DNA of 49,962 nucleotides, taken from assembly GCA_021814355.1 (NCBI GenBank), contig JAKAIJ010000001.1, forward strand, positions 1 through 49,962. The letters run 5' to 3'. Within the stretch, counting starts at the first letter, position 1, and every line of letters begins with the position of its first letter. The translations under genes and the position numbers were made by a program. The DNA comes from Acidobacteriota bacterium. Its GTDB lineage: Bacteria > Acidobacteriota > UBA4820 > DSQY01. Shown here piece by piece: positions 7,242 to 49,962 of the stretch. Under the pieces are notes generated by a model. The model was not told the DNA's origin, ran no database searches, and worked only from the letters and a program-made list of their open reading frames with translations.

Positions 7242-8378
7242 TCACGCCTGGGTCGCGATCCTGCGGAAGGCGTTCTTGAAGAACCGCATCTCGTGGAAAA
7301 GGAAGTTGTGGCTGGGGTAGACGGTGTGCGGCTTGGGGGGCTCCGCCAAGAGGGCCGCGAACTCCTCCCGGCTCAGGCCGAACTTCTTCAGGACGAACTG
7401 CATGTCCTGCTTGAGAAGCAGCCCGTCGTAAACGGGCTTCTCCATCTCGGCCAGCGCCCGTTCGCGGGTCATGAGGTTCGAGCAGATCATCGTGGAGTAG
7501 TGGGGCCTCCGCTTGTCGTACCCGAACTTGACGGGCAGGTAGTAGCCCTGGAAGAAGCGCGTCCAGACGGACTCATAGTGCTTTCCCCCGTAATCCCGCC
7601 AGCCCAGTTCTTTTTCCAGGATCCGCTTGGCCTCCTCCTTGTCGTAGTGGACGTAATTGAGGAAAGGGATCTGCCGCATCCGCCGGACGAAGACATAGTA
7701 GAGGTAGTGGGAGAGGGAAATGGTGGGCATGGTCTGGAGAGGCTTCGTGCCGAACCTCCGGTGGACGGCCTTCAGGTGCCGGAGGTCCTGGTTGTAGTAG
7801 GCCCAGGAGATGGGCATGATCGCCTCCGTGGCGAGGTTGCTCCCGCTCAAGATGAAGCGCACCTTCAGCCGGGCGGCCATCCGGAACAACAGGGCCGTGA
7901 TCCCGTGGTCGGTGGGGATCTCGCAGTTCGCCACCGAGGCCCTCAGAAAGGATATCTGGAGGTCCCGGAACTCCTCCCAGTCCACCACGTGCGTGTAGAG
8001 CTCGATCCCGAGGTGATCGAGCGCGCGCTTGATGTTGTCCACCGCCAGCTCGGAATTCCACCCGTTGTCGAAGTGCACGGCGAGCGGACGGAGCCCGAGT
8101 TTCTTCACGAGGTAGGCGGTCATGGTGCTGTCCACCCCGCCGCTCACCCCGATGACGCAGTCGTACTCCTTGCCACGCCCCTCGTGCTGAATCTGCGACG
8201 CCAATTTTTGGAGGGCGAGGTCCCGCGCCTCGGGCGGGAGGAGCTGCGCTTTCATCCTCGCGAGGGCGGACGTGCAGTGGTTGCAGACGCCGCCGGCGCC
8301 GAAGCTGATCTCCGGCTCGCTGGTGTCCATGATGCAGCGCGTGCAGACCTGGTAGGGCCTCGCCACGTTTTTCCTCAC
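7242..8378 (-). CDS. N-acetyl sugar amidotransferase (PP-loop ATP pyrophosphatase; WbpG/LfnA/PseA/WbuX family), copy 1.
   Basis: There is an N-terminal zinc ribbon (CTRCIMDT...GVCNHC) and a PP-loop (VIGVSGGVDSTMTAY). It lies downstream of a HisH/HisF-like pair, as in known acetamidino loci. The start is GTG 8378; the Cys ribbon rules out the later ATG. Confidence 0.8.
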   Translation of the reverse strand: MRKNVARPYQVCTRCIMDTSEPEISFGAGGVCNHCTSALARMKAQLLPPEARDLALQKLASQIQHEGRGKEYDCVIGVSGGVDSTMTAYLVKKLGLRPLAVHFDNGWNSELAVDNIKRALDHLGIELYTHVVDWEEFRDLQISFLRASVANCEIPTDHGITALLFRMAARLKVRFILSGSNLATEAIMPISWAYYNQDLRHLKAVHRRFGTKPLQTMPTISLSHYLYYVFVRRMRQIPFLNYVHYDKEEAKRILEKELGWRDYGGKHYESVWTRFFQGYYLPVKFGYDKRRPHYSTMICSNLMTRERALAEMEKPVYDGLLLKQDMQFVLKKFGLSREEFAALLAEPPKPHTVYPSHNFLFHEMRFFKNAFRRIATQA

Positions 8379-41006: not shown

Positions 41007-42313
41007 GCGGTCACGATGTTCCGGCCGCCGCCGGGGAAGACGTTGCGGGTGTCCACGACCAGCGGGAGGCGCCTCGCCACCAGGGCGTAGTCCACGGCGG
41101 CGTGGTCGGTCACGACCACCGCCGCGTCGAAGCCCGCCAGGCTCCGGGCCGTGAGCGGCACGCTGGCCAGATCGAAGGCGTACTCCCGAGTGCGCGGAAG
41201 GCGCGGGACGTGGGGGTCGTGGTAGGCCGCGCGGGCCCCGGCCCGGTCGAGGAGGCTCAGGATCTTGAGGGCGGGCGACTCGCGCATGTCGTCAATGTCG
41301 CGCTTGTATGCCACGCCCAGGACGAGCACCCGGGCCCCGCGGAGCGGCTTGCCGAGGTCGGCCAGCCCCCCGCGCAGCCGCTCCACCACGTGGTAGGGCA
41401 TGGAGGTGTTGATCTCCCCGGCCAGCTCGATGAACCGCGTGGAGAAATCGAACTCGCGGGCCTTCCACGTGAGGTAGAAGGGGTCAATGGGGATGCAGTG
41501 CCCACCGAGCCCCGGCCCCGGGTAGAAGGGCATGAAGCCGAAGGGCTTGGTGGCCGCCGCCCGGATCACCTCGAAGACGTCCAGCCCCATGCGCCCGCAC
41601 AGGAGCTTCACCTCGTTGGCCATGGCGATGTTCACGGCCCGGAAGGTGTTCTCGTAGATCTTCACCATCTCGGCGGTGCGCGTGGAGGAGACCGGGACCA
41701 CCCGCTGGAACGCGGCGCCGTACAGGTCCACCGCGGCCTTCAGCGCGGCGGGGGTGTCGGCGCCCACCACCTTGGGGATGCGGGCCGTGGTGAACTTCTC
41801 GTTGCCGGGGTCCTCCCGCTCGGGGCTGAAGGCGAGGTGGAAGTCCCGGTTGGCCCGGAGCCCCTTGGCCGCCTCGAGGATGGGCCGCACCACTTCGTCC
41901 GTCGTGCCGGGCCAGGTGGTGCTTTCGAGCACCACGAGCATCCCCTTGTGGAGGTAGGGGGCGGTGGCGCGGGCCGTCTCTTCGATGTAGGACATGTCCG
42001 GCTCGCGGTGGTGGGTGAGGGGCGTCGGGACGCAGTAGATGAGCGCGTCCACTCCCCCCACCTTGCGGAAGTCGGTGGTGGCGGAGAGCCGCCCCGCCCG
42101 GACCTGCGCGGCGATGCGCGCCGAGGGGACGGTCTTGAGGTAGGTCCGGCCCTTCGCGAGGGCCGCCGGTTTAGCCGGGTCCACGTCGAATCCGACGACC
42201 CGGAAGCCCGCCTCGCAGAACGTGAGGCTCAGCGGCAGCCCCACGTAGCCCAGCCCCACGACTCCCACCGTCGGATGCCCCCTGCGAACCATCGGCGCCC
42301 CTCCCCGCATCAC
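41003..42313 (-). CDS. wbpA: UDP-N-acetyl-hexosamine 6-dehydrogenase (UDP-glucose/GDP-mannose dehydrogenase family, WbpA/WecC-like).
   Basis: Motifs [13 protein letters not shown] and [11 protein letters not shown] (catalytic Cys), with a C-terminal UDP-binding domain. The start is GTG 42313 (GTGA overlap) or ATG 42310. Confidence 0.8.
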
Positions 42314-43536
42314 GGCCGCGCGCCCGGCGCCGGCGCGCCGGGCTCACGGTGTACGGCCTTCGACCCGCCCCGCGACTCCCGCGCCAGCCGGGCGAGGGTC
42401 CGGGCCTGTCTCCCCCACCGGCGCAGGTAGAGGAGCGGCACCGGGAGGTGGGCGTGGCCGGGGTCCTTCTCGCGCAGGTGCGCGGCCCCCGGGAAGAGGA
42501 TCTGCCACGCGATCCTGCCGGCGCTCCAGGGGCTGCGGGCGTGGCGGATCTGCGCCAGCGCCTCCTGCCCCACCCTGCTTTCCGGGCTTAGAGGGGGCCT
42601 TTTCTCTCCCCCCATTTCGCGGAGCCGGCTCAGGACCTCGCCGGGAACCGCCGCGCCGAAGACCTCCGCCGCCCCGAGGAGTCCCTCGCACGCCGCGCCC
42701 GCGAAGCCGCTCTCGCGGGCCAGTTGGCACACCCTCTCCCAGCTCAGGCGGCCGCCGAACCGCTCCAGGAGCTGGGCGGCGTCCGCGAAGGCGAGGAGCT
42801 TGAAGGTCTCCCCCGTCCGAAAACCCGACGCGTGGGCCATGAGGTAGACCAGGTTGGCCTCCGGGGCGAGCACCCGCGCGGGGCGCCCCAGGAGGGTCGT
42901 GGGCTCGAGCCCCTGAAGGAGGCAGCGGGTCCGGGAGACCCTGCGGTCGCGCGCCGCGAAGAGGAGCTCGCCGTGGATCTCGACCAGGCAGCCGGTGGCC
43001 GGGGCCTTCAGGGCGTCGAGGTGGTTGTCCAGGTCCCAGGGGTCCGCCGACGCCCCCGCGCCCTGGGATTCGTACCCCGCCGAGAGAAGCCTTCGCTGCG
43101 CCTCCTCCGCCTTGGCCAGGTCCTCGAAGTAGAGGTCCGTGTCGGCCCGCGGGCGGAGGTAGGGGCTCGGGTAGCAGCGGTAGGCCAGGTCCACCCCCTT
43201 GAGCAGGACCGGCGGCACGCCCACGGGCGCCAGCAGGTCGAGCACCCGCTCCAGCTCCCGCTCCTGGACCTCGGCCACCGCCCGGTAGCGGGCGAGCCGG
43301 CGGTCGAGATCGGCCCAGCGCGACAAAGAGCCACCCGTCTCGCGCCCGGCCCGTTGGAGGCGCCGCAGAACGAGGGGCAGGACGCCCTCCCAGCGGAGCT
43401 GCTCGGCCGTCTCGCGCCACTCCTCCTCGCCGAGATCCAGCAGTCGGGACGGCTCGCGCACGAGGAGCGCAAGGGACCCCGCCGCGGGCGCGGGCGCTCC
43501 GCTACGCCTCTCGAGAAGCCCGGAGACCGGGCTCAC
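42310..43536 (-). CDS. Uncharacterised nucleotidyltransferase-like protein (PF14907/NTP_transf_5-like), paralog B.
   Basis: Start at GTG 43536 (GTGA overlap). PPVLLKGVDLAYRCYPSPYLRPRADTDLYF matches the family pattern as I recall it: LKG, then YP...R, then DxDL. It is colinear with the upstream paralog along its whole length. Confidence 0.6.
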   Translation of the reverse strand: MSPVSGLLERRSGAPAPAAGSLALLVREPSRLLDLGEEEWRETAEQLRWEGVLPLVLRRLQRAGRETGGSLSRWADLDRRLARYRAVAEVQERELERVLDLLAPVGVPPVLLKGVDLAYRCYPSPYLRPRADTDLYFEDLAKAEEAQRRLLSAGYESQGAGASADPWDLDNHLDALKAPATGCLVEIHGELLFAARDRRVSRTRCLLQGLEPTTLLGRPARVLAPEANLVYLMAHASGFRTGETFKLLAFADAAQLLERFGGRLSWERVCQLARESGFAGAACEGLLGAAEVFGAAVPGEVLSRLREMGGEKRPPLSPESRVGQEALAQIRHARSPWSAGRIAWQILFPGAAHLREKDPGHAHLPVPLLYLRRWGRQARTLARLARESRGGSKAVHREPGAPAPGARP

Positions 43537-44786
43537 GGCTCCTCTCCGGTCACGCGGGCCGCCAGCCCTGCGCGCGCTTCGTCCGCCGGGGAAAATGGAG
43601 CTGACCGCCCCTTCTCAGGGCGCCGGAAGAAGAACCGGACGAGCTGACGGGCCTGGTCGGCCCACCGGTAGGGGTAGAGGAGGGCCACCGGCCAGTGCCG
43701 CCGCTCCCCGTACTTCTGCCGCAGGTGGGCCGGCGGCGGAGCGAGCAGTTGCAGCCCCATCCTTAGGGCGACCAGCGGATTTCTCGCGTTGCCGAGCTTT
43801 TGAAGCGCGATGTGGGCGCTTCGCGTCTCCAGGGTGTACGGGAGGTCGTCCCCCGCGGCCTGTTCAAGCCGTTCGAGGAGCGGCTCCGGCACAGGAAGGC
43901 CGAGGTACTCGCGCGCGAGGGCGAGGCCGCGCGCCACGGGCACGGCGCACCCGCACCCCGCCGCCAGCGCCCCGAGCCGCTCCCAGCCGAAGGCCGGCCC
44001 CGTCTTCTCCGCCACCGCGGCCACGTCCGCAAGGGCGACGAGCCGCGGGGGCTCGGCCGAGTGCTGCTCGAACATGTGGGCCAGCAGGAACACCACGTTC
44101 GCCTCCGGCGCGAGTCCGAAACACCGCCCCGGCAGCCCCGGGATCTCCTCGAGCCCCTCCAGCAGCGGGCGCATGGCCCTCCAGCGCCGGTCCCGCGGGG
44201 CGAAGATCAGGCTCCCGTGGATCTCGACGAGCGCCCCGTTCTGCGGGTCCCGGAGGGTGGGCAGGTGGTACTGGGCGTCCCAGGGGCTCCCGCTGGACAC
44301 TGGATAGGGACTGGTGAAGCCGTGGCCCGCCAGCACCCGCTGGACCTCTTCCGCCTCGGCCAGGTCCGGAAAGAGGAGGTCCATGTCGGACATGGGGCGC
44401 AGGTGGGGCGCCTCGTAGTAGCAATGGGCCAGATGGAGGCCCTTGAGAAGGACCGGCGCGTGCCCTCCGGCGGCCAGGAGCCCCAGGAGGCGCTCGAAGG
44501 CGAGCATCGTGGCGGCGAACGCCGCCTTGTGCCGGTCCGCCTCCCGGGAGAGCGCCCGGCGCTGGGGCTCGGTGAGCGTCCCCCCCGCTTCGAGCCGCCG
44601 CCGCGCCACGACCGCGCCCACGCCCTCCCACCGCAGCCGGTCGAGCAGCGCGTCCAGCTCCGCGGGCGCCGCCGGCAAGGCGGCCCGCGGGTCTGTCACG
44701 AGGCGGGCGAGGCGGCGCCAGGCGGAGGCGTCAATGCCGCCGGCAGCGCCGGGCGGGATGCGGAACTTCTGGGCGGCGCGCGGCAT
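43533..44786 (-). CDS. Uncharacterised nucleotidyltransferase-like protein (PF14907/NTP_transf_5-like), paralog A.
   Basis: ATG 44786. Motifs: APVLLKGLHLAHCYYEAPHLRPMSDMDLLF. It shares RWEGV, LVEIHG, LAPEAN and a C-terminal LLY.YRW region with paralog B. Confidence 0.6.
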   Translation of the reverse strand: MPRAAQKFRIPPGAAGGIDASAWRRLARLVTDPRAALPAAPAELDALLDRLRWEGVGAVVARRRLEAGGTLTEPQRRALSREADRHKAAFAATMLAFERLLGLLAAGGHAPVLLKGLHLAHCYYEAPHLRPMSDMDLLFPDLAEAEEVQRVLAGHGFTSPYPVSSGSPWDAQYHLPTLRDPQNGALVEIHGSLIFAPRDRRWRAMRPLLEGLEEIPGLPGRCFGLAPEANVVFLLAHMFEQHSAEPPRLVALADVAAVAEKTGPAFGWERLGALAAGCGCAVPVARGLALAREYLGLPVPEPLLERLEQAAGDDLPYTLETRSAHIALQKLGNARNPLVALRMGLQLLAPPPAHLRQKYGERRHWPVALLYPYRWADQARQLVRFFFRRPEKGRSAPFSPADEARAGLAARVTGEEP

Positions 44787-44787
44787 C

Positions 44788-45068
44788 TTAGGGCCTATCC
44801 GTAAATAGGGCGCGGCCGCGCGCTCTGCGCCGGGCGAGCGGGGCGAGGCGGCCGACCGAAGTAAGGCTGCGCGAAGCGCCTTTCGAGGGAGGCCAACAAA
44901 GCCATGCGACGCCCGCCGCGAGCGCCCGGAGGGACGGGGCCATCCGCGCGCCTGGCCGCGTCAGCTCGCTCATCCGATGGTCTCCGTCATCGCCCTTCGC
45001 TTGCTTCCTTGCCATTCATCGCGGCTGGCCTCCGTCGCGACCATGCCTTATTTGCGGATAGGCCCTTA
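44788..45068. mobile_element. MITE-like non-autonomous element: 275-bp body (44791..45065) with 21-bp imperfect terminal inverted repeats, flanked by TTA on both sides.
   Basis: The left end is GGGCCTATCCGTAAATAGGGC (44791..44811). The reverse complement of the right end (45045..45065) is GGGCCTATCCGCAAATAAGGC, so 19 of 21 positions match. TTA sits at 44788..44790 and at 45066..45068. There is no credible internal ORF. The first 49 nt recur at 49807..49855. Confidence 0.6.
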
Positions 45069-45890
45069 CAGAGGCTGGTAGGTGCGGCGGAGCACGAGCC
45101 GGAAGGGCGGAGGGCCGCCGGGTCCGCGGACGAACAGGCGGTCCACGATCCAGACGTCCCTGCCGAGCTTCAAGGTCCGCTCGTCGCCGGGGCCGTCCGG
45201 AAAGGGCTGGAACGCCCCGGCGAACCAGGAGGACCAGCGATAGCCGTCCGGGCGGGTGCAGAGCAGGTGGAGCGACGACTCGCCCGCGCACTCCCCCGTT
45301 CTCAGTCCCACGAAATAGACCTGTCCCACGGCGCCGTCCGGGGGCAGCTCGCCCTTGCGGACGTAGAACTTGGGTTTGCTCCATTCGTCCCAGCGCCAGC
45401 TGGCCGGGAAGAGCCGCAGAACCCAGAGCGGGGTTCGGTCTGGCGCATCTCCCGAGGGGGTGCGCCCGTCGAGCCCCACGAGCGTGTAGTCGAAGGCGGG
45501 ACCGGCGGCGCCGTTCTCGAGGGCCCAGGCCTCCGCCCTGCGCGACTCCGAGGCGAAGTCCTCCGACCAGAGGGCGTAGGCGGCGAGCAGGGGCCAGGCC
45601 GCGTCGCGCTTCTCGAGAACGAGCCGCCGGCCGCAGGCCCCCAGGCCGTACCGCACCCGGCGGGCGGTGGAGGCGAGCCCCAGGCGGGTGGTCCGCCCGA
45701 ACGCCACGCGGTACTGGCGAAGCGCTTCGGCCACGTCCCCGCGCGCGGCGGCCTCCTCGGCCTCCGCCAGCGACGCGAAGCCCCCCTGGGCGAAGAGCGC
45801 CGCGGGGAACTCCGTCGGGGCCACGCGGAGATGCGCCCCCACGGCCGCCACCGCCAGAAGAAGGGCGAGCGCGCTTCCGAGACGGCTCAT
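45066..45890 (-). CDS. Hypothetical secreted protein.
   Basis: Start at ATG 45890 (ATGA overlap with the upstream Wzy_C-like gene). The N-terminal signal-peptide-like segment is MSRLGSALALLLAVAAVGAH. I recognise no family motif. Its stop TAA (45068..45066) coincides with the TTA flank of the MITE-like element. Confidence 0.55.
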   Translation of the reverse strand: MSRLGSALALLLAVAAVGAHLRVAPTEFPAALFAQGGFASLAEAEEAAARGDVAEALRQYRVAFGRTTRLGLASTARRVRYGLGACGRRLVLEKRDAAWPLLAAYALWSEDFASESRRAEAWALENGAAGPAFDYTLVGLDGRTPSGDAPDRTPLWVLRLFPASWRWDEWSKPKFYVRKGELPPDGAVGQVYFVGLRTGECAGESSLHLLCTRPDGYRWSSWFAGAFQPFPDGPGDERTLKLGRDVWIVDRLFVRGPGGPPPFRLVLRRTYQPL

Positions 45891-47356
45891 CCGGCCGCCT
45901 CCCGTTCCCCGGTCACTTCGTCCCTCCGGGGGCCTCCGTGCCGGCGCCTCTGCTTGTGCGCGCTGCCGCCCGCGTCGAGCTGCACCTCCAGGGCGACCAT
46001 CCCCACGATGCAGACCAGGAGCAGGGCGCCCACGATCGGGAAGACGTGGGCCGTGAAGTCCACCGCCGCGTGCAGGGTCTCCCCCACGAGGACCGGGGCC
46101 AACCAGAAGGCGGCGTGGGCCTCGAGCGAGAGCCTCGCGGCCAAGTAGACCACCCCGACCCCCGTCGCCAGCGCCGCCAAGGCGGGCAGGATTCCCCCTT
46201 CGAAGAAGGCCTGGAGGTACTCGTTCTCCAGGTGGGTGTTGCGCATCTGCGGGAAGAAAGGAAGGTCCGCGGATTCGGCGGCGAATTGCGGCTCGAAGCT
46301 GCCCAGGCCGTGCCCCAGGGCGAACCCGTGGGCGGGCACGTTGGCGCCGAGCCGGAGGCGGCCCCGGTCCGACACCAGCCCCGACCACGCCGCCAGGGCC
46401 CCGCCGCAAAGCAACGCCGCGAGGAAGACCCATGCGAGCGCGAGCCTCCAGGGGCGGGAGGGGTGGAGTGCGCCGTTGGCGAGCCACGCGAGCGGATAGA
46501 AGAGCAGCGCCAGCAGCGAGCCCTGCGAGTGGCTGGCGAAGAGCACGGCCACGTGGAGGGCGAAGAGGCCCAGGCAGAGCAGGCGCAGCCCGAAGCGGTC
46601 GCTACGCCGTGCGGTGGCGCAGGAGAGGCGCCAGATCAGGTAGTAGAGCAGCGGAACCGCGAGGTTGACGAAGGCGGCGCCGTGGTTGGGATTCACGAAG
46701 GGACCGAAGGCTCCCGCGGCCCGCGCGCTGGGGCGCACCCAGAGGATCGTCGTCCGGGCCTTGTCCTGGAACTCCGCCAGCGCCGCCAGCGCCACGAAGA
46801 GGCCGAGCCCGCCGACCAGCCAGGCGAGCCGGCGGAGCGCATCGCGCCCCTCTTCGGCGAGCCGCTCGAGCAGGAGGATGAGGCAGAGGCCGGCGGCGAG
46901 GGCCAGCAGCGCGCGGAAGGTGGCCGGCGGCGTGAAGCTGGGGGGGATCCACGCGGGCGCCTTCGGGGTGCGCGGTGTCCAGTTCTCGGGCGGAAGGGGT
47001 TTTTCGGCCTCCGCGGAGAAGGGGTCCCGCCGGTAGGCGTCCGTATGGAGCAGGGCCTCGGCCCGGGCCGCCCGCTCGTACATCGTGTACCGCTCGGCGC
47101 CGCAGGCTTTCCAGAGCGACGCCGGCAAGGGGACCAGCTGGGCGAGCCCGACCGCCAGGAGCACGACGACGAGCAGCGCCGGAAGCCAGAGCCGCCTGGG
47201 AACGCGCCAGAACTCCCTGGAGCCCCATCCCACCACGGACGCGCCCGCGAGAAGGATCACTTCGCAGGCGGCGATGGACCAGTTCTCCATGCAGCCGAAG
47301 GCGAGCGAGGAGAAGACGAAAAAGAGGGCCAGGGGCCAGAAGGCCGACAGGGTCAG
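45887..47356 (-). CDS. O-antigen ligase/polymerase family membrane protein (Wzy_C-like), copy 2; start codon uncertain.
   Basis: The protein is polytopic. LAFGCMENWSIAACEVILL is the typical N-terminal helix pair, and FASHSQGSLLAL and NTHLENEYLQAFFEGGI form a Wzy_C-like loop. No ATG or GTG lies between the rmlB stop and the first conserved helix. The 5' end is provisionally set at CTG 47356. Confidence 0.6.
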   Translation of the reverse strand: MTLSAFWPLALFFVFSSLAFGCMENWSIAACEVILLAGASVVGWGSREFWRVPRRLWLPALLVVVLLAVGLAQLVPLPASLWKACGAERYTMYERAARAEALLHTDAYRRDPFSAEAEKPLPPENWTPRTPKAPAWIPPSFTPPATFRALLALAAGLCLILLLERLAEEGRDALRRLAWLVGGLGLFVALAALAEFQDKARTTILWVRPSARAAGAFGPFVNPNHGAAFVNLAVPLLYYLIWRLSCATARRSDRFGLRLLCLGLFALHVAVLFASHSQGSLLALLFYPLAWLANGALHPSRPWRLALAWVFLAALLCGGALAAWSGLVSDRGRLRLGANVPAHGFALGHGLGSFEPQFAAESADLPFFPQMRNTHLENEYLQAFFEGGILPALAALATGVGVVYLAARLSLEAHAAFWLAPVLVGETLHAAVDFTAHVFPIVGALLLVCIVGMVALEVQLDAGGSAHKQRRRHGGPRRDEVTGEREAAG

Positions 47357-48471
47357 ACTCCCACCCGTCCGCGGGGCGCCGCGGCCGGCGGCGCTCCGCC
47401 GGCTCCGGCGTCCTCGTAGGTCCGGCGGACGAACTCCCGGTACTCTCCGGTCTGTACGCGCCGCCACCACGGCTCGTGGTCCAGGTACCACCTCACCGTC
47501 GCCCGCAGACCCGCGTCGAAGGGGACCTCGGGACGGAAGCCGAGCTCTCGCTCGGCCTTGGACGGATCGAGGGCGTAGCGCCAGTCGTGGCCGGGGCGGT
47601 CCTTCACGAAGACGACGCGAGAGAGCGCCCGGTCGGGGTCTCCGCCCGCGGCCGAGGCGAGCTCCCGGGCGAGCCCGCGGACGAGGTCCAGGTTCCTCCG
47701 CTCGCACCGCGCGCCCAGGTTGTAGACCTGTCCCGCCCGCCCCCCCTCGAGCGCCAACAGGACGCCCCGGCTGTGGTCGTCCACGTGGATCCAGTCCCGC
47801 ACGTTCTCGCCCTTTCCGTAGACGGGCAGCGTCTGGCCGTCCACGAAGCGGGCGATCAGGAAGGGGATGAGCTTCTCGGGGAACTGGCGGGGACCGTAGT
47901 TGTTGCAGCAGCGCGTCACCACCGTATCGAGGCCGAACGTGCGGTGGTACGCGAGGACGAGCTGGTCCGCCGCCGCCTTGCTCGCGGAGTAGGGCGAGGA
48001 GGGGGCCAGGGGCGTCTCCTCGGTGAAGCGGCCCGTCTCCCCCAGCGCGCCGTAGACCTCGTCGGTGGAGACCTGGAGGAAGCGGCCCCCGCCCGGCGCC
48101 CAGGCTCCGCGGGCCGCCTCCAGCAGGGTGGCCGTCCCCAGGACGTTGGTCCTCACGAAATCCAGCGGGCCGAGGAGGGAGCGGTCCACGTGGCTCTCGG
48201 CGGCGAAGTGGACCACCGCCGACGGCGCCTCCTCCGCGAAAAGCCGGCCCACCGCGGCCCCGTCCGCCACGTCTCCGCGGACGAAACGGTAGCGGTCCGC
48301 GAACCGCGCGTCGAGGCCTTCGAGGTTCTCGAGGTTGCCGGCGTAGGTGAGGGCGTCCAGCACCACGACGCGCCAGTCCGGCCGCGACGAGAGCGCGAGG
48401 GCGACGAAGCCGCTGCCGACGAAGCCGGCGCCGCCCGTGACCAGGACCGTGCGCACCGCGTCCCGCCTCAC
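47353..48471 (-). CDS. rmlB: dTDP-glucose 4,6-dehydratase.
   Basis: Start at GTG 48471 (GTGA overlap; GTG 48456 is an alternative). Motifs VLVTGGAGFVGSGF, HFAAESHVDRS, STDEVYG, SPYSASKAAADQLV and NNYGPRQFPEKLIP. Confidence 0.9.
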   Translation of the reverse strand: MRRDAVRTVLVTGGAGFVGSGFVALALSSRPDWRVVVLDALTYAGNLENLEGLDARFADRYRFVRGDVADGAAVGRLFAEEAPSAVVHFAAESHVDRSLLGPLDFVRTNVLGTATLLEAARGAWAPGGGRFLQVSTDEVYGALGETGRFTEETPLAPSSPYSASKAAADQLVLAYHRTFGLDTVVTRCCNNYGPRQFPEKLIPFLIARFVDGQTLPVYGKGENVRDWIHVDDHSRGVLLALEGGRAGQVYNLGARCERRNLDLVRGLARELASAAGGDPDRALSRVVFVKDRPGHDWRYALDPSKAERELGFRPEVPFDAGLRATVRWYLDHEPWWRRVQTGEYREFVRRTYEDAGAGGAPPAAAPRGRVGV

Positions 48472-49325
48472 GCCGCCGCGCGCCCCGTGGCGCGCAGGTA
48501 GTCGCACATGGCCACCTCCCAGGAGCGGACTGGGAGCGTCGGCAGGCCCTGGCGCAGCCAGCCGTGGCGCGGCCTCGCCGCGGGGCGGGGAAACTCCGCC
48601 GTGGCGCAGGGCACCACCCGGCACGCGAGGCCCGCGGCCTTTACGAGCGCCTCGGCGAACCGGAACCGGGTGACGGGCCCGCCGCCGTTTACGGCGTGGG
48701 CGATGCCCGCGGCCCCGGCGCGGAGCAGCGCCACGATCTGCCCCGCCAGGTCGTCCGTGTAGGTGGGGGCGCCCCACTGGTCGTCCACCACCCGGAGCTC
48801 CCCGCGCGCCGCCGAGAGCCGCAGGATCGCGTCGGGGAAGCTGCGCCCCGTCCGGCCGTAGAGCCACTGCGTCCGGCAGACGAGGAACCGGCCCGGCGGC
48901 ATCGCCGCGGCCACCGCGCGCTCCCCCTCCAGCTTGGTGCGGCCGTAGGCGTTGACCGCCGGGCCGGGAGGGTCCCCGGGAGAGTAGCCGTGGGGCCGGT
49001 CGCCGGGAAAGACGTGGTCTGTGCTGAGGTGGACGAGGAAGAGCCCCCGCTCCGCGCAGGCGCGGGCCACCGCGCCGGCCCCCGCGGCGTTGGCGCGGGA
49101 CGCCTCGTCCACGCGGGACTCGGCGCCGTCCACGTCGGTGTAGGCCGCCGCGTTCACCACCACGTCGGCGGGATGCGCGTCCAGGAAGCGGGCGAGCGAC
49201 TCGGGGGAGGCGATGTCCACCGCGGGCAGGTCGCCCCCCGCCACCGGAAAGCCGGCCGCCTCGAACGCCGGCGCGGCGTCCCGGCCGAACATCCCGCCGG
49301 CCCCCAGAAGGAGCAGCCTCCTCAC
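48468..49325 (-). CDS. rmlD: dTDP-4-dehydrorhamnose reductase.
   Basis: Start at GTG 49325. Motifs LLLLGAGGMFG, VVNAAAYTDVDGAE, HLSTDHVF, NAYGRTKLEGE and VVDDQWGAPTYTDDLA. Confidence 0.85.
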   Translation of the reverse strand: MRRLLLLGAGGMFGRDAAPAFEAAGFPVAGGDLPAVDIASPESLARFLDAHPADVVVNAAAYTDVDGAESRVDEASRANAAGAGAVARACAERGLFLVHLSTDHVFPGDRPHGYSPGDPPGPAVNAYGRTKLEGERAVAAAMPPGRFLVCRTQWLYGRTGRSFPDAILRLSAARGELRVVDDQWGAPTYTDDLAGQIVALLRAGAAGIAHAVNGGGPVTRFRFAEALVKAAGLACRVVPCATAEFPRPAARPRHGWLRQGLPTLPVRSWEVAMCDYLRATGRAAA

Positions 49326-49333
49326 GCGGTCCC

Positions 49334-49792
49334 CTACCGGTCCTTGGTCGCCCAGTCGTAGGCGATGAGGCCGTTTTGGTGCGGGTCCAGGCGGTGCTCG
49401 TCGGGGTTCCGGTAGTCGTACGTTTTCGTCGTCACGTTGATGATGTACGCCTCCTCGGTACCGAGGCACTTCCAGCCGTGGTAGACGCCGACGGGGACCT
49501 GAACCAGCAGCGGGTTCTGCTCGCCGATGACGAACTCGGCGACCTCGCCCCGGGTGGGCGAGCCCTCCCGCGTGTCGGCCAGCACCAGCTTCACCATACC
49601 CTTGACGCAGACGAAGTTGTCCTCCTGGAGTTCGTGGCGGTGCCAGGCTTTCACCACGCCGGGGTAGGTGGTCGTGAGGTACACCTGCCCGAAGCCGGTG
49701 AAGAGCGCGTCGTCCGCCCTCAGCATCTCCATGAGCCGGCCCCGGTCGTCTGGGAGGACCTTCAGCGGCTTCACCTTCACGTCATGGATCAT
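49334..49792 (-). CDS. Short RmlC-like cupin (dTDP-4-dehydrorhamnose 3,5-epimerase-related).
   Basis: 152 aa with ATG at 49792. Motifs DDRGRLMEM, GQVYLTTTYPGVVKAWHRH and VPVGVYHGW (cupin His residues). It lies immediately upstream of rmlD and rmlB. Confidence 0.7.
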   Translation of the reverse strand: MIHDVKVKPLKVLPDDRGRLMEMLRADDALFTGFGQVYLTTTYPGVVKAWHRHELQEDNFVCVKGMVKLVLADTREGSPTRGEVAEFVIGEQNPLLVQVPVGVYHGWKCLGTEEAYIINVTTKTYDYRNPDEHRLDPHQNGLIAYDWATKDR

Positions 49793-49802
49793 CGGCTCGT
49801 CC

Positions 49803-49855
49803 CTTAGGGCCTATCCGTAAATAGGGCGCGGCCGCGCGCTCTGCGCCGGGCGAGC
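49803..49855. repeat. Second copy of the left end of the MITE-like element (49 nt identical, plus the CTTA flank); the rest runs off the window.
   Basis: 49807..49855 is identical base for base to 44791..44839, and both are preceded by CTTA. Similarity decays after position 50. The window ends before a right-hand inverted repeat could appear. Confidence 0.6.
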
Positions 49856-49962
49856 AGGGTAGGGGCTCGGGCCGCCAAGGGCTCCCGGCGCGTTGCCCCC
49901 CGGGCCGGTGCAGATTCACGAAGGCCCGAGGCAGGCGTGCGGGACGGCACGCAGACGAGGGC

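What the first reader, a model, noticed from the sequence alone, without database searches (positions are those of the whole stretch)
44788..45068. 275-bp MITE-like insertion exactly filling an intergenic junction of a translationally coupled operon
There are 21-bp terminal inverted repeats matching at 19 of 21 positions: GGGCCTATCCGTAAATAGGGC, and the reverse complement of GCCTTATTTGCGGATAGGCCC. TTA sits on both flanks. The interior has no credible ORF and contains a perfect GCGCGGCCGCGC palindrome.

Removing the element and one TTA leaves, on the coding strand, ...CCTCTG TAA G ATG CCG... That is a stop, one nucleotide and then a start, which is the tight spacing seen at almost every other junction in this locus. 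This argues for a relatively recent insertion with a 3-bp target duplication. As I recall, some IS5-group and Harbinger-like elements duplicate TNA or TTA in this way.

The insertion separates the rml / Wzy_C-2 / secreted-protein genes from about 44 kb of downstream genes. It must therefore either terminate or re-initiate transcription, so an outward promoter is possible.
Basis: seen in the sequence. Interest (0 to 1): 0.65.

Follow-up and report, generated by a model that had tools for sequence, protein, structure and literature searches.

The report
Acidobacterial MITE inserted at stop codon
The 275-bp spacer is a real small non-coding mobile element (a MITE) of a repeat family scattered through uncultured Acidobacteriota genomes, which landed on a TAA stop codon inside a sugar-polymer operon; this is a clear but fairly ordinary kind of bacterial genome parasite.

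Summary
Window 44791..45065 is a 275-bp non-coding element with 21-nt terminal inverted repeats (19/21 matching, extendable to 31 nt) and TTA on both flanks.

It is one copy of a dispersed family:
- A second, 942-bp copy starts at 49804 and is cut by the window end.
- Thirteen more insertions lie in unrelated gene contexts in other Acidobacteriota MAGs and metagenomes.
- Five of eight complete copies have perfect TTA or TAA direct repeats.
- Related genomes have an empty rmlA-rmlC junction where the second copy sits.

Six insertions abut a stop codon. TWA (TTA or TAA) is rare in this 70% GC DNA, and the duplication regenerates the stop. That explains why the element "exactly fills" the junction.

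The interior folds into a Y shape (closing stem plus two long hairpins). This fold is kept by compensatory substitutions. It varies by gain or loss of whole hairpin modules, with no strand bias.

I found no transposase partner, no Rfam match, and no promoter-like or terminator-like site. The "must terminate or re-initiate" inference is therefore unsupported; co-transcription is the default.

Verdict: a new member of a known kind, a MITE with an IS5/Harbinger-like 3-bp TWA duplication. Interest is moderate to low.

The parts
44788..44790 (.). Left copy of the 3-bp target-site duplication (TTA on +; TAA on the gene strand, 1 nt before the ATG of the downstream gene)
   Evidence: Read directly. 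The same triplet is at 45066..45068.
44791..45065 (+). el1: 275-bp non-coding MITE body (modules A-B-C-D, written in A-to-D orientation on the + strand, which is antisense to the operon)
   Evidence: Homologous copies of 270-272 nt at about 84% identity are in L011, L013 and L017. No Pfam, Rfam or tRNA hit.
44790..44820 (+). Left terminal inverted repeat (A end): 21-nt core at 44791..44811, extended arm to 44820. Forms the 5' half of the closing stem.
   Evidence: (repeat I1, 31 nt, 84%), (helix 1).
44816..44929 (+). Arm 1: long imperfect hairpin (modules A/B)
   Evidence: In one search, helices 2-4 hold 7 pairs with changes on both sides.
44931..45038 (+). Arm 2: long imperfect hairpin (modules C/D)
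   Evidence: In one search, helices 5-8 hold 3 pairs with changes on both sides.
45036..45066 (+). Right terminal inverted repeat (D end): 21-nt core at 45045..45065. Forms the 3' half of the closing stem.
45066..45068 (.). Right copy of the target-site duplication. On the minus strand it is the TAA stop codon of the upstream 274-aa gene.
   Evidence: stop codon at distance 0 from the element.
43533..44786 (-). Downstream gene (417 aa, NTP_transf_5). Its ATG lies 4 nt after the element body.
   Evidence: gene call (L005 5500..6753).
45066..45890 (-). Upstream gene (274 aa, no Pfam family), ending in the TAA that was the insertion target
   Evidence: (L005 4396..5220).
49804..49962 (+). el2: first 159 nt (TTA plus the A end) of a second, 942-bp family member in the same orientation, cut by the window end. 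It lies between rmlA and the rmlC-like gene (49334..49792, minus strand).
   Evidence: The full copy is in L004 9046..9987, flanked TAA/TAA. Empty site in relatives.

Best explanation
el1 is a non-autonomous DNA transposon (MITE). It belongs to a family that is dispersed in a lineage of uncultured, GC-rich Acidobacteriota.

Inferred mechanism:
- A DDE transposase supplied in trans binds the 21-31-nt terminal inverted repeats. Judging by the 3-bp TWA duplication and GG-starting termini, it is of the IS5 / PIF-Harbinger kind.
- It integrates at TTA or TAA with a 3-nt staggered cut, which duplicates the triplet.

Shown: TWA is rare in this DNA (71 sites in 50 kb).

Inferred: most tolerated targets are TAA stop codons or intergenic sites. 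Inserting on a stop codon regenerates it, so the upstream ORF stays intact and the element appears to 'exactly fill' a gene junction. Here it split a stop-1 nt-start junction (TAA G ATG).

Shown: the body is a Y-shaped palindrome, a closing stem made by the TIRs plus two long hairpins. Pairing is maintained by compensatory changes. The body evolves by loss or gain of whole hairpin modules. el1 is the short A-B-C-D form, and its neighbour el2 is A-X'-B-Y-C-X-D.

Inferred: the element is simply co-transcribed with the operon as a very stable structure (about -157 kcal/mol) and breaks translational coupling. It is neither a terminator nor a promoter.
For: 1. Repeats beyond chance: the terminus occurs 3 times in the window against 0.00 expected.
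2. Fifteen separate insertions in different gene contexts:
- window el1 and el2;
- L001 and L002 (MAG bin_60) and L003 (MAG WY3.bin59);
- L009, L010, L011, L013, L014, L015, L016 (two copies), L017 and L018.
Flanking genes include a Mur ligase, an HTH regulator and an HU protein.
3. Target duplication: perfect TTA/TTA or TAA/TAA direct repeats in el1, el2, L009, L010 and L011. L013 has TGA/TAA. All 5 pairs that have TWA at both ends match in the middle base.
4. Empty site for the sister copy. Relatives with 82% identical RmlC-like proteins have rmlA stop + 10-13 nt + ATG (L021, L022, L023). One of them, L021, comes from the same MAG that carries family copies elsewhere. The source has TAA-[939 bp]-TAA-gggacgagccg-ATG.
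5. Non-coding: no Pfam domain in the 75-aa ORF or in the 298-aa ORF over el2, frame-breaking indels, and no Rfam or tRNA hit.
6. Stop codon directly abutting the element in el1, el2, L003, L013, L016b and L017. TWA occurs only 1.4 times per kb.
7. Fold: z = -4.6 and -4.0 on the two strands. 97% of cells are paired. Twelve pairs changed on both sides, against 5.1 +/- 1.5 in shuffles and 1-2 in slid controls. Paired columns are 22% variable and unpaired columns 50%.
8. Orientation relative to neighbouring genes is mixed, and neither strand is favoured by G-U pairs.
9. Five assemblies, the window included, break inside el2, as expected for a multi-copy repeat.
Against: - No autonomous element with the same termini and no transposase was found in anything I could search. 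Assignment to IS5/Harbinger rests on the duplication and the terminal bases only.
- Two complete copies (L003, L017) lack matching flank triplets.
- No empty site could be obtained for el1 itself, because the downstream gene has no orthologues.
- Only two copies are visible in the source organism, since I hold only about 60 kb of it.
- The maintained internal pairing is more than a transposase needs and is not explained by transposition alone.
Confidence: 0.85

Rival explanations
1. It is primarily a structured RNA. It would be a mobile or repeatedly recruited riboregulator, processing signal or sRNA gene whose fold is under selection, and the inverted ends would simply be its closing helix.
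For: The fold is strongly conserved with compensatory changes in the core and in the X module (18 of 92 pairs among 3 copies). Loops vary more than stems. Modules are inserted only at loops or junctions. The consensus energy is slightly better on the A-to-D strand.
Against: - No Rfam family matches.
- No promoter-like site.
- Orientation relative to host genes is mixed.
- The G-U over A-C excess appears on whichever strand is folded, so there is no strand signal, and single-copy energies favour different strands.
- Target duplications and the empty site show it arrives by DNA transposition.
- Quasi-palindrome templated repair can generate compensatory changes without selection (my own knowledge).
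Confidence: 0.07
2. It is a REP/REPIN- or PATE-like palindromic element moved as single-stranded DNA by a Y1 (RAYT or IS200/IS605-type) transposase that recognises the terminal mini-hairpins.
For: Each terminus is itself a small hairpin (GCCTAT-CCGTAA-ATAGGGC). The 52-bp L015 copy is just two inverted termini, like a REPIN doublet. Whole-element hairpin potential is maintained.
Against: - Flanking triplets are duplicated on both sides and occur as either TTA or TAA depending on the copy. Y1 transposases make no duplication and use one fixed left-flank target.
- There is no GTAG or CGTC head as in the REP superfamilies (PMC3733652, abstract).
- The two ends are true inverted repeats.
Confidence: 0.05
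3. It is a conserved native regulatory spacer: two operator-like palindromes or an internal promoter/terminator of the operon.
For: It sits upstream of a gene start. The same 53 nt precede two gene starts in the window.
Against: - Copies occur in unrelated contexts and in both orientations.
- Relatives lack any spacer at the rmlA-rmlC junction.
- No promoter-like or terminator-like site was found.
- The 53 shared nt are simply the A end of two copies of the same element.
Confidence: 0.02

Closest known systems
Prokaryotic MITEs such as Correia/CREE (Neisseria), ERIC (Enterobacteriaceae) and RUP (pneumococcus)
   Same: Small, non-coding and multi-copy, with TIRs plus short target duplications. 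Intergenic, often at 3' gene ends and co-transcribed, and the transcripts fold into very stable stem-loops (PMC10969869, PMC3184786).
   Different: The duplication is TWA (3 bp) rather than TA. The element is GC-rich, not AT-rich. It is larger and modular (52 to 942 bp, built from hairpin modules). No IHF site, promoter or RNase site has been shown here.
bcr1 repeats of the Bacillus cereus group
   Same: A mobile repeat with short direct repeats. Its cruciform-like fold is maintained by compensatory base-pair changes (PMC3184786, section on Bacillus repeats).
   Different: bcr1 is about 155 bp with 5-bp direct repeats and is known to be transcribed. There is no sequence similarity. Here neither strand is favoured and transcription is untested.
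IS5-family insertion sequences (IS1031 / IS427 / ISL2 groups) and eukaryotic PIF/Harbinger with their Tourist-like MITEs
   Same: A 3-bp TNA/TWA target duplication and termini beginning GG. This is from my own recollection of ISfinder and the transposon literature; it was not tested against a database.
   Different: No transposase gene or autonomous copy was found, so kinship is inferred only from the footprint of integration.
REP/BIME/REPIN elements mobilised by RAYTs
   Same: Extragenic palindromes. A minimal family member (L015) looks like an inverted doublet.
   Different: This family has target duplications and long TIRs, and lacks the GTAG/CGTC tag (PMC3733652).

Membership tests
MITE (non-autonomous cut-and-paste DNA transposon) | Terminal inverted repeats | tested here: met
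   19/21 core, 31 nt at 84%. The same termini occur in all family members.
MITE (non-autonomous cut-and-paste DNA transposon) | Short direct target-site duplication at both flanks | tested here: met
   TTA/TTA in el1. Five of 8 complete copies are perfect, one matches 2 of 3, and two do not match. The empty site has one stop triplet and the filled site has two.
MITE (non-autonomous cut-and-paste DNA transposon) | Small and without coding capacity | tested here: met
   275 bp. ORFs have no domains and indels are not multiples of 3.
MITE (non-autonomous cut-and-paste DNA transposon) | Multiple dispersed copies in unrelated genomic contexts | tested here: met
   Fifteen insertions in at least 5 datasets. 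Only 2 are visible in the source organism, because little of it is held.
MITE (non-autonomous cut-and-paste DNA transposon) | Presence/absence polymorphism (empty site) | tested here: inconclusive
   Met for the sister copy el2 (L021, L022, L023). Not obtainable for el1, because the downstream gene has no orthologues and all four population contigs that span the el1 site carry el1.
MITE (non-autonomous cut-and-paste DNA transposon) | Cognate autonomous IS with the same termini | tested here: inconclusive
   None turned up in the genome, metagenome or viral scans or in the held loci. The scans needed exact 15-19-nt matches and are capped.
IS5 family / PIF-Harbinger derivative | 3-bp TNA/TWA duplication and GG-type termini | tested here: met
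   The family definition is taken from memory of ISfinder, not from a database check.
IS5 family / PIF-Harbinger derivative | DDE transposase (DDE_Tnp_1/DDE_Tnp_4) that binds these termini | not testable with these tools
   No partner element was found and no full genome is available.
REP/REPIN (RAYT-mobilised) | 20-40-nt palindromic unit with a GTAG or CGTC head, and no target duplication | tested here: not met
   Termini start GGGCC and TWA is duplicated. Criterion from PMC3733652.
Known structured RNA families (Rfam 15) | Covariance-model match | tested here: not met
   Nothing relevant at E <= 1 on window 44000..46000, and nothing relevant at E <= 5 on the full el2.
Intrinsic terminator / sigma-70 promoter | GC hairpin plus U-tract, or -35/-10 hexamers | tested here: not met
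   0 sites of either kind in 44500..45400 on both strands. Acidobacterial promoter types other than sigma-70 are not covered.

The most novel reading that the evidence does not exclude
The Y-shaped fold may be selected because it makes operon insertions harmless, or even useful. The closing stem brings the regenerated stop codon (immediately 5' of the stem) and the downstream start codon (4 nt 3' of the stem) side by side. Terminating ribosomes could then re-initiate across the folded element, a shunt-like preservation of translational coupling. The compact RNA would also resist Rho loading. The family would then be a 'stop-codon-homing', structurally self-insulating MITE rather than a passive parasite.
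Probability: 0.06. Interest if true: 0.7.

Novelty: new member of a known kind. Interest (0 to 1): 0.35.

Why it matters
- **Annotation.** It identifies a repeat family in poorly known, uncultured Acidobacteriota. The family breaks assemblies: five contigs, the window included, end inside the larger copy. It also creates spurious ORF calls; a 298-aa 'gene' was called over el2.
- **Target choice.** It shows how a TWA-targeting transposon in a 70% GC genome ends up on TAA stop codons. This explains spacers that 'exactly fill' coupled gene junctions.
- **Polysaccharide locus.** Two same-orientation copies bracket a 4.7-kb block of five genes (rmlC-like, rmlD, rmlB, a membrane protein and a 274-aa protein). 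This gives a substrate for deletion or rearrangement and a possible modulator of expression of about 44 kb of downstream genes.
- **Limits.** None of this is conceptually new for bacterial MITEs.

Tried and rejected
- **Known RNA families and tRNAs.** Rfam at permissive thresholds on el1 and the full el2 gave only noise. ARAGORN found no tRNA or tmRNA.
- **Promoter and terminator scan.** Nothing found.
- **Coding capacity.** The 75-aa ORF in el1 and the 298-aa ORF over el2 have no transposase or other domain.
- **Empty site for el1.** The homologue search with the downstream NTP_transf_5 protein returned only itself, its tandem paralogue and one 42% hit. No test was possible.
- **Autonomous partner.**
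  - The genome-collection scan gave 3 loci, all MITE copies.
  - The metagenome scan gave 10 loci, of which 9 are MITE copies and L012 is a chance hit in a lower-GC coding region.
  - The viral scan of the 16-nt terminus head (15 specified bases) gave 16 chance-level hits with no extended similarity.
  - The plasmid collection gave no match.
  - A fuzzy search for termini in all held loci found no extra ends.
- **More copies in the window.** BLAST and an nhmmer profile found none beyond el1 and el2.
- **Strand-specific RNA signal.** The G-U versus A-C excess looked promising (22:7). It proved to be an artefact, because it reappears (28:9) when the opposite strand is folded.
- **Other kinds of element.** Integron attC, IS200/IS605 ends and piggyBac-type TTAA or IS630-type TA duplications were considered and rejected from the flank pattern.
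- **Literature.** A search for the terminus sequence returned only unrelated primers. I found no paper describing an acidobacterial MITE of this kind.

Full report
**Observation**

- The window is about 70% GC, and the genes around the finding are on the minus strand.
- GGGCCTATCCGTAAATAGGGC lies at 44791..44811. Its imperfect inverse lies at 45045..45065 (19/21 matching). With neighbouring bases the inverted repeat reaches 31 nt at 84%.
- The degenerate 21-mer has 0.00 expected chance matches in the window but occurs three times.
- TTA flanks both ends, at 44788..44790 and 45066..45068.
- On the gene strand the right TTA is the TAA stop codon of a 274-aa gene. The left TTA sits one base before the ATG of a 417-aa NTP_transf_5 gene.
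- The 75-aa ORF inside has no family hit and is broken by 5-nt and 2-nt indels in other copies.
- The GCGCGGCCGCGC palindrome is real but is not conserved in the family.

**A second copy, and the family**

- The third match of the terminus (49807..49827) starts a second element that runs off the end of the window.
- A contig from the same population (L004, found through the exact RmlC-like protein) shows the full copy. It is 942 bp, sits between the TAA stop of rmlA and the rmlC-like start, has the same termini and is flanked TAA/TAA.
- Five assemblies of this locus, the window included, end inside this copy. That is expected of a multi-copy repeat.
- An exact-pattern scan of one genome per species found the terminus in only two other Acidobacteriota MAGs (three loci).
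- A metagenome scan found nine more true members. L012 is a chance hit.
- Similarity extends through the whole element. L011, L013 and L017 carry 270-272-nt copies about 84% identical to el1.
- In all I count 15 separate insertions. Their neighbours are as different as a Mur ligase, an HTH regulator and an HU protein, and orientations are mixed.

**Mobility**

- Reading the three bases outside each terminus gives these results:
  - el1, el2, L009, L010 and L011 have perfect direct repeats of TTA or TAA.
  - L013 has TGA/TAA.
  - L003 and L017 do not match.
- If the A/T next to the terminus were merely part of the inverted repeat and the middle base were free, only half of such pairs would match. 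All five pairs with TWA on both sides do match.
- Orthologous loci give an empty site for el2. Three contigs whose RmlC-like protein is 82% identical have rmlA stop + 10-13 nt + ATG and no element. One of them comes from the very MAG that carries family copies elsewhere.
- The spacer in L021, ggagagaccg, resembles the gggacgagccg that follows el2 in the source.
- For el1 itself no empty site could be obtained. The downstream gene has essentially no orthologues, and all four population contigs that span the site carry el1.

**Why it 'exactly fills' the junction**

- TTA plus TAA occur only 71 times in the 50-kb window.
- At most 13 long ORFs on either strand (seven on the gene strand) end in TAA.
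- Yet six insertions (el1, el2, L003, L013, L016b, L017) abut a stop codon with zero distance.
- I infer two things:
  - A TWA-specific integrase in GC-rich DNA, filtered by selection against insertions within genes, ends up on stop codons.
  - The 3-bp duplication regenerates the stop, so the upstream protein is unchanged.
- In L013 the flank copy is TGA, which is still a stop.

**Anatomy**

- el1 folds, on either strand, into a closing stem made by the termini plus two long imperfect hairpins. The energies are -157.8 and -156.7 kcal/mol, with z = -4.6 and -4.0.
- Six aligned cores give these figures:
  - 97% of pair cells are standard pairs.
  - Twelve pairs changed on both sides, against 5.1 +/- 1.5 in shuffles (0/500) and 1-2 in slid controls.
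- Paired columns are less variable than unpaired ones, 22% against 50%.
- The family is modular:
  - el1 is A-B-C-D.
  - L003 is A-B-C-X-D.
  - el2 is A-X'-B-Y-C-X-D.
  - L010 and L014 carry another module, Z.
  - L009 lacks B.
  - L015 is a 52-bp doublet of termini.
- Modules sit at internal loops or junctions and are hairpins themselves. X has the same Y shape, with 18 of 92 pairs compensated among three copies.
- I infer that the shorter forms arise by deletion of hairpins.
- The apparent excess of G-U over A-C mismatches does not identify a transcribed strand. It appears equally when the opposite strand is folded, and single-copy energies favour different strands.
- Maintained pairing has a precedent in the bcr1 repeats of Bacillus (PMC3184786). 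It could also arise neutrally by quasi-palindrome templated repair (my own knowledge).

**What it does in the operon**

- No sigma-70-like promoter and no hairpin-plus-U-tract terminator is present in 44500..45400. No Rfam family matches.
- The claim that the element must terminate or re-initiate transcription is a false dichotomy. MITEs in operons are typically co-transcribed and act, if at all, through RNA structure and RNase cleavage (PMC10969869, PMC3184786).
- I infer that el1 is read through as a very stable structure and abolishes the original stop-1 nt-start coupling.
- I also infer that it buries the 15 nt upstream of the downstream ATG in the closing stem.
- Whether expression suffers is untested.

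**Classification and novelty**

- Every operational criterion of a MITE is met except identification of the autonomous partner, which I could not find.
- The 3-bp TWA duplication and GG termini point to the IS5 family or its PIF/Harbinger relatives. That assignment rests on my recollection of those families and on no transposase.
- REP/REPIN, attC, IS200/IS605 and TA- or TTAA-duplicating families do not fit the flanks (PMC3733652).
- I found no paper describing this family.
- It is a new member of a known kind. The specific features are a stop-codon bias, GC-rich modular Y-shaped palindromes, and two copies inside one polysaccharide operon. These are neat but not surprising.
- Interest 0.35. 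Confidence that it is a MITE 0.85.

Noticed in passing
window 49804..49962 (full copy: L004 9043..9990): A second, 942-bp family member sits between rmlA and the rmlC-like gene, and the window (a whole contig) ends inside it. Gene callers placed a 298-aa ORF with no domain over it.
   Followed up: yes
window 44788..49962: el1 and el2 are in the same orientation. They bracket a 4.7-kb block of five genes (rmlC-like, rmlD, rmlB, a 467-aa membrane protein and a 274-aa protein). All four flanks read TTA on the + strand. This could be a substrate for deletion by recombination or for composite mobilisation, although relatives show that rmlA-rmlC adjacency is ancestral.
   Followed up: partly
L016 7250..7889: An HU-family DNA-binding gene (Pfam Bac_DNA_binding, E = 1.8e-25) is flanked on both sides by family members in the same orientation. 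Its TAA stop is the insertion target of the downstream copy.
   Followed up: partly
L015 1658..1710: A minimal 52-bp family member consists of just two inverted termini, directly after a long ORF. It looks like the end-product of internal deletion.
   Followed up: partly
L005 5496..5502 versus window 44784..44790: There is a population polymorphism at the downstream gene's start codon: ATG in the window, GTG in L005. There is also one T-to-C change in the loop of the left terminus.
   Followed up: no
window 42310..44786: There are two tandem paralogous NTP_transf_5 genes (408 and 417 aa, 43% identical) with almost no homologues in 5.8 billion proteins: only 3 hits at E <= 1e-20.
   Followed up: no
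L004 7393..8163 (upstream of rmlA, outside the window): This is a 770-bp non-coding leader with a striking AT-rich island (about 7890..8010) in otherwise 70% GC DNA. It is the likely promoter or regulatory region of the operon. Relatives (L019, L020) have a NusG-paralogue gene just upstream of their rml genes.
   Followed up: no
L032 6450..7700 (IMG/VR viral contig): Three direct copies of a roughly 90-nt intergenic repeat happen to share 16 nt (AGGGCCTATCCGTAAA) with the MITE terminus. There is no further similarity. It is probably a phage promoter/terminator repeat and a chance overlap.
   Followed up: partly
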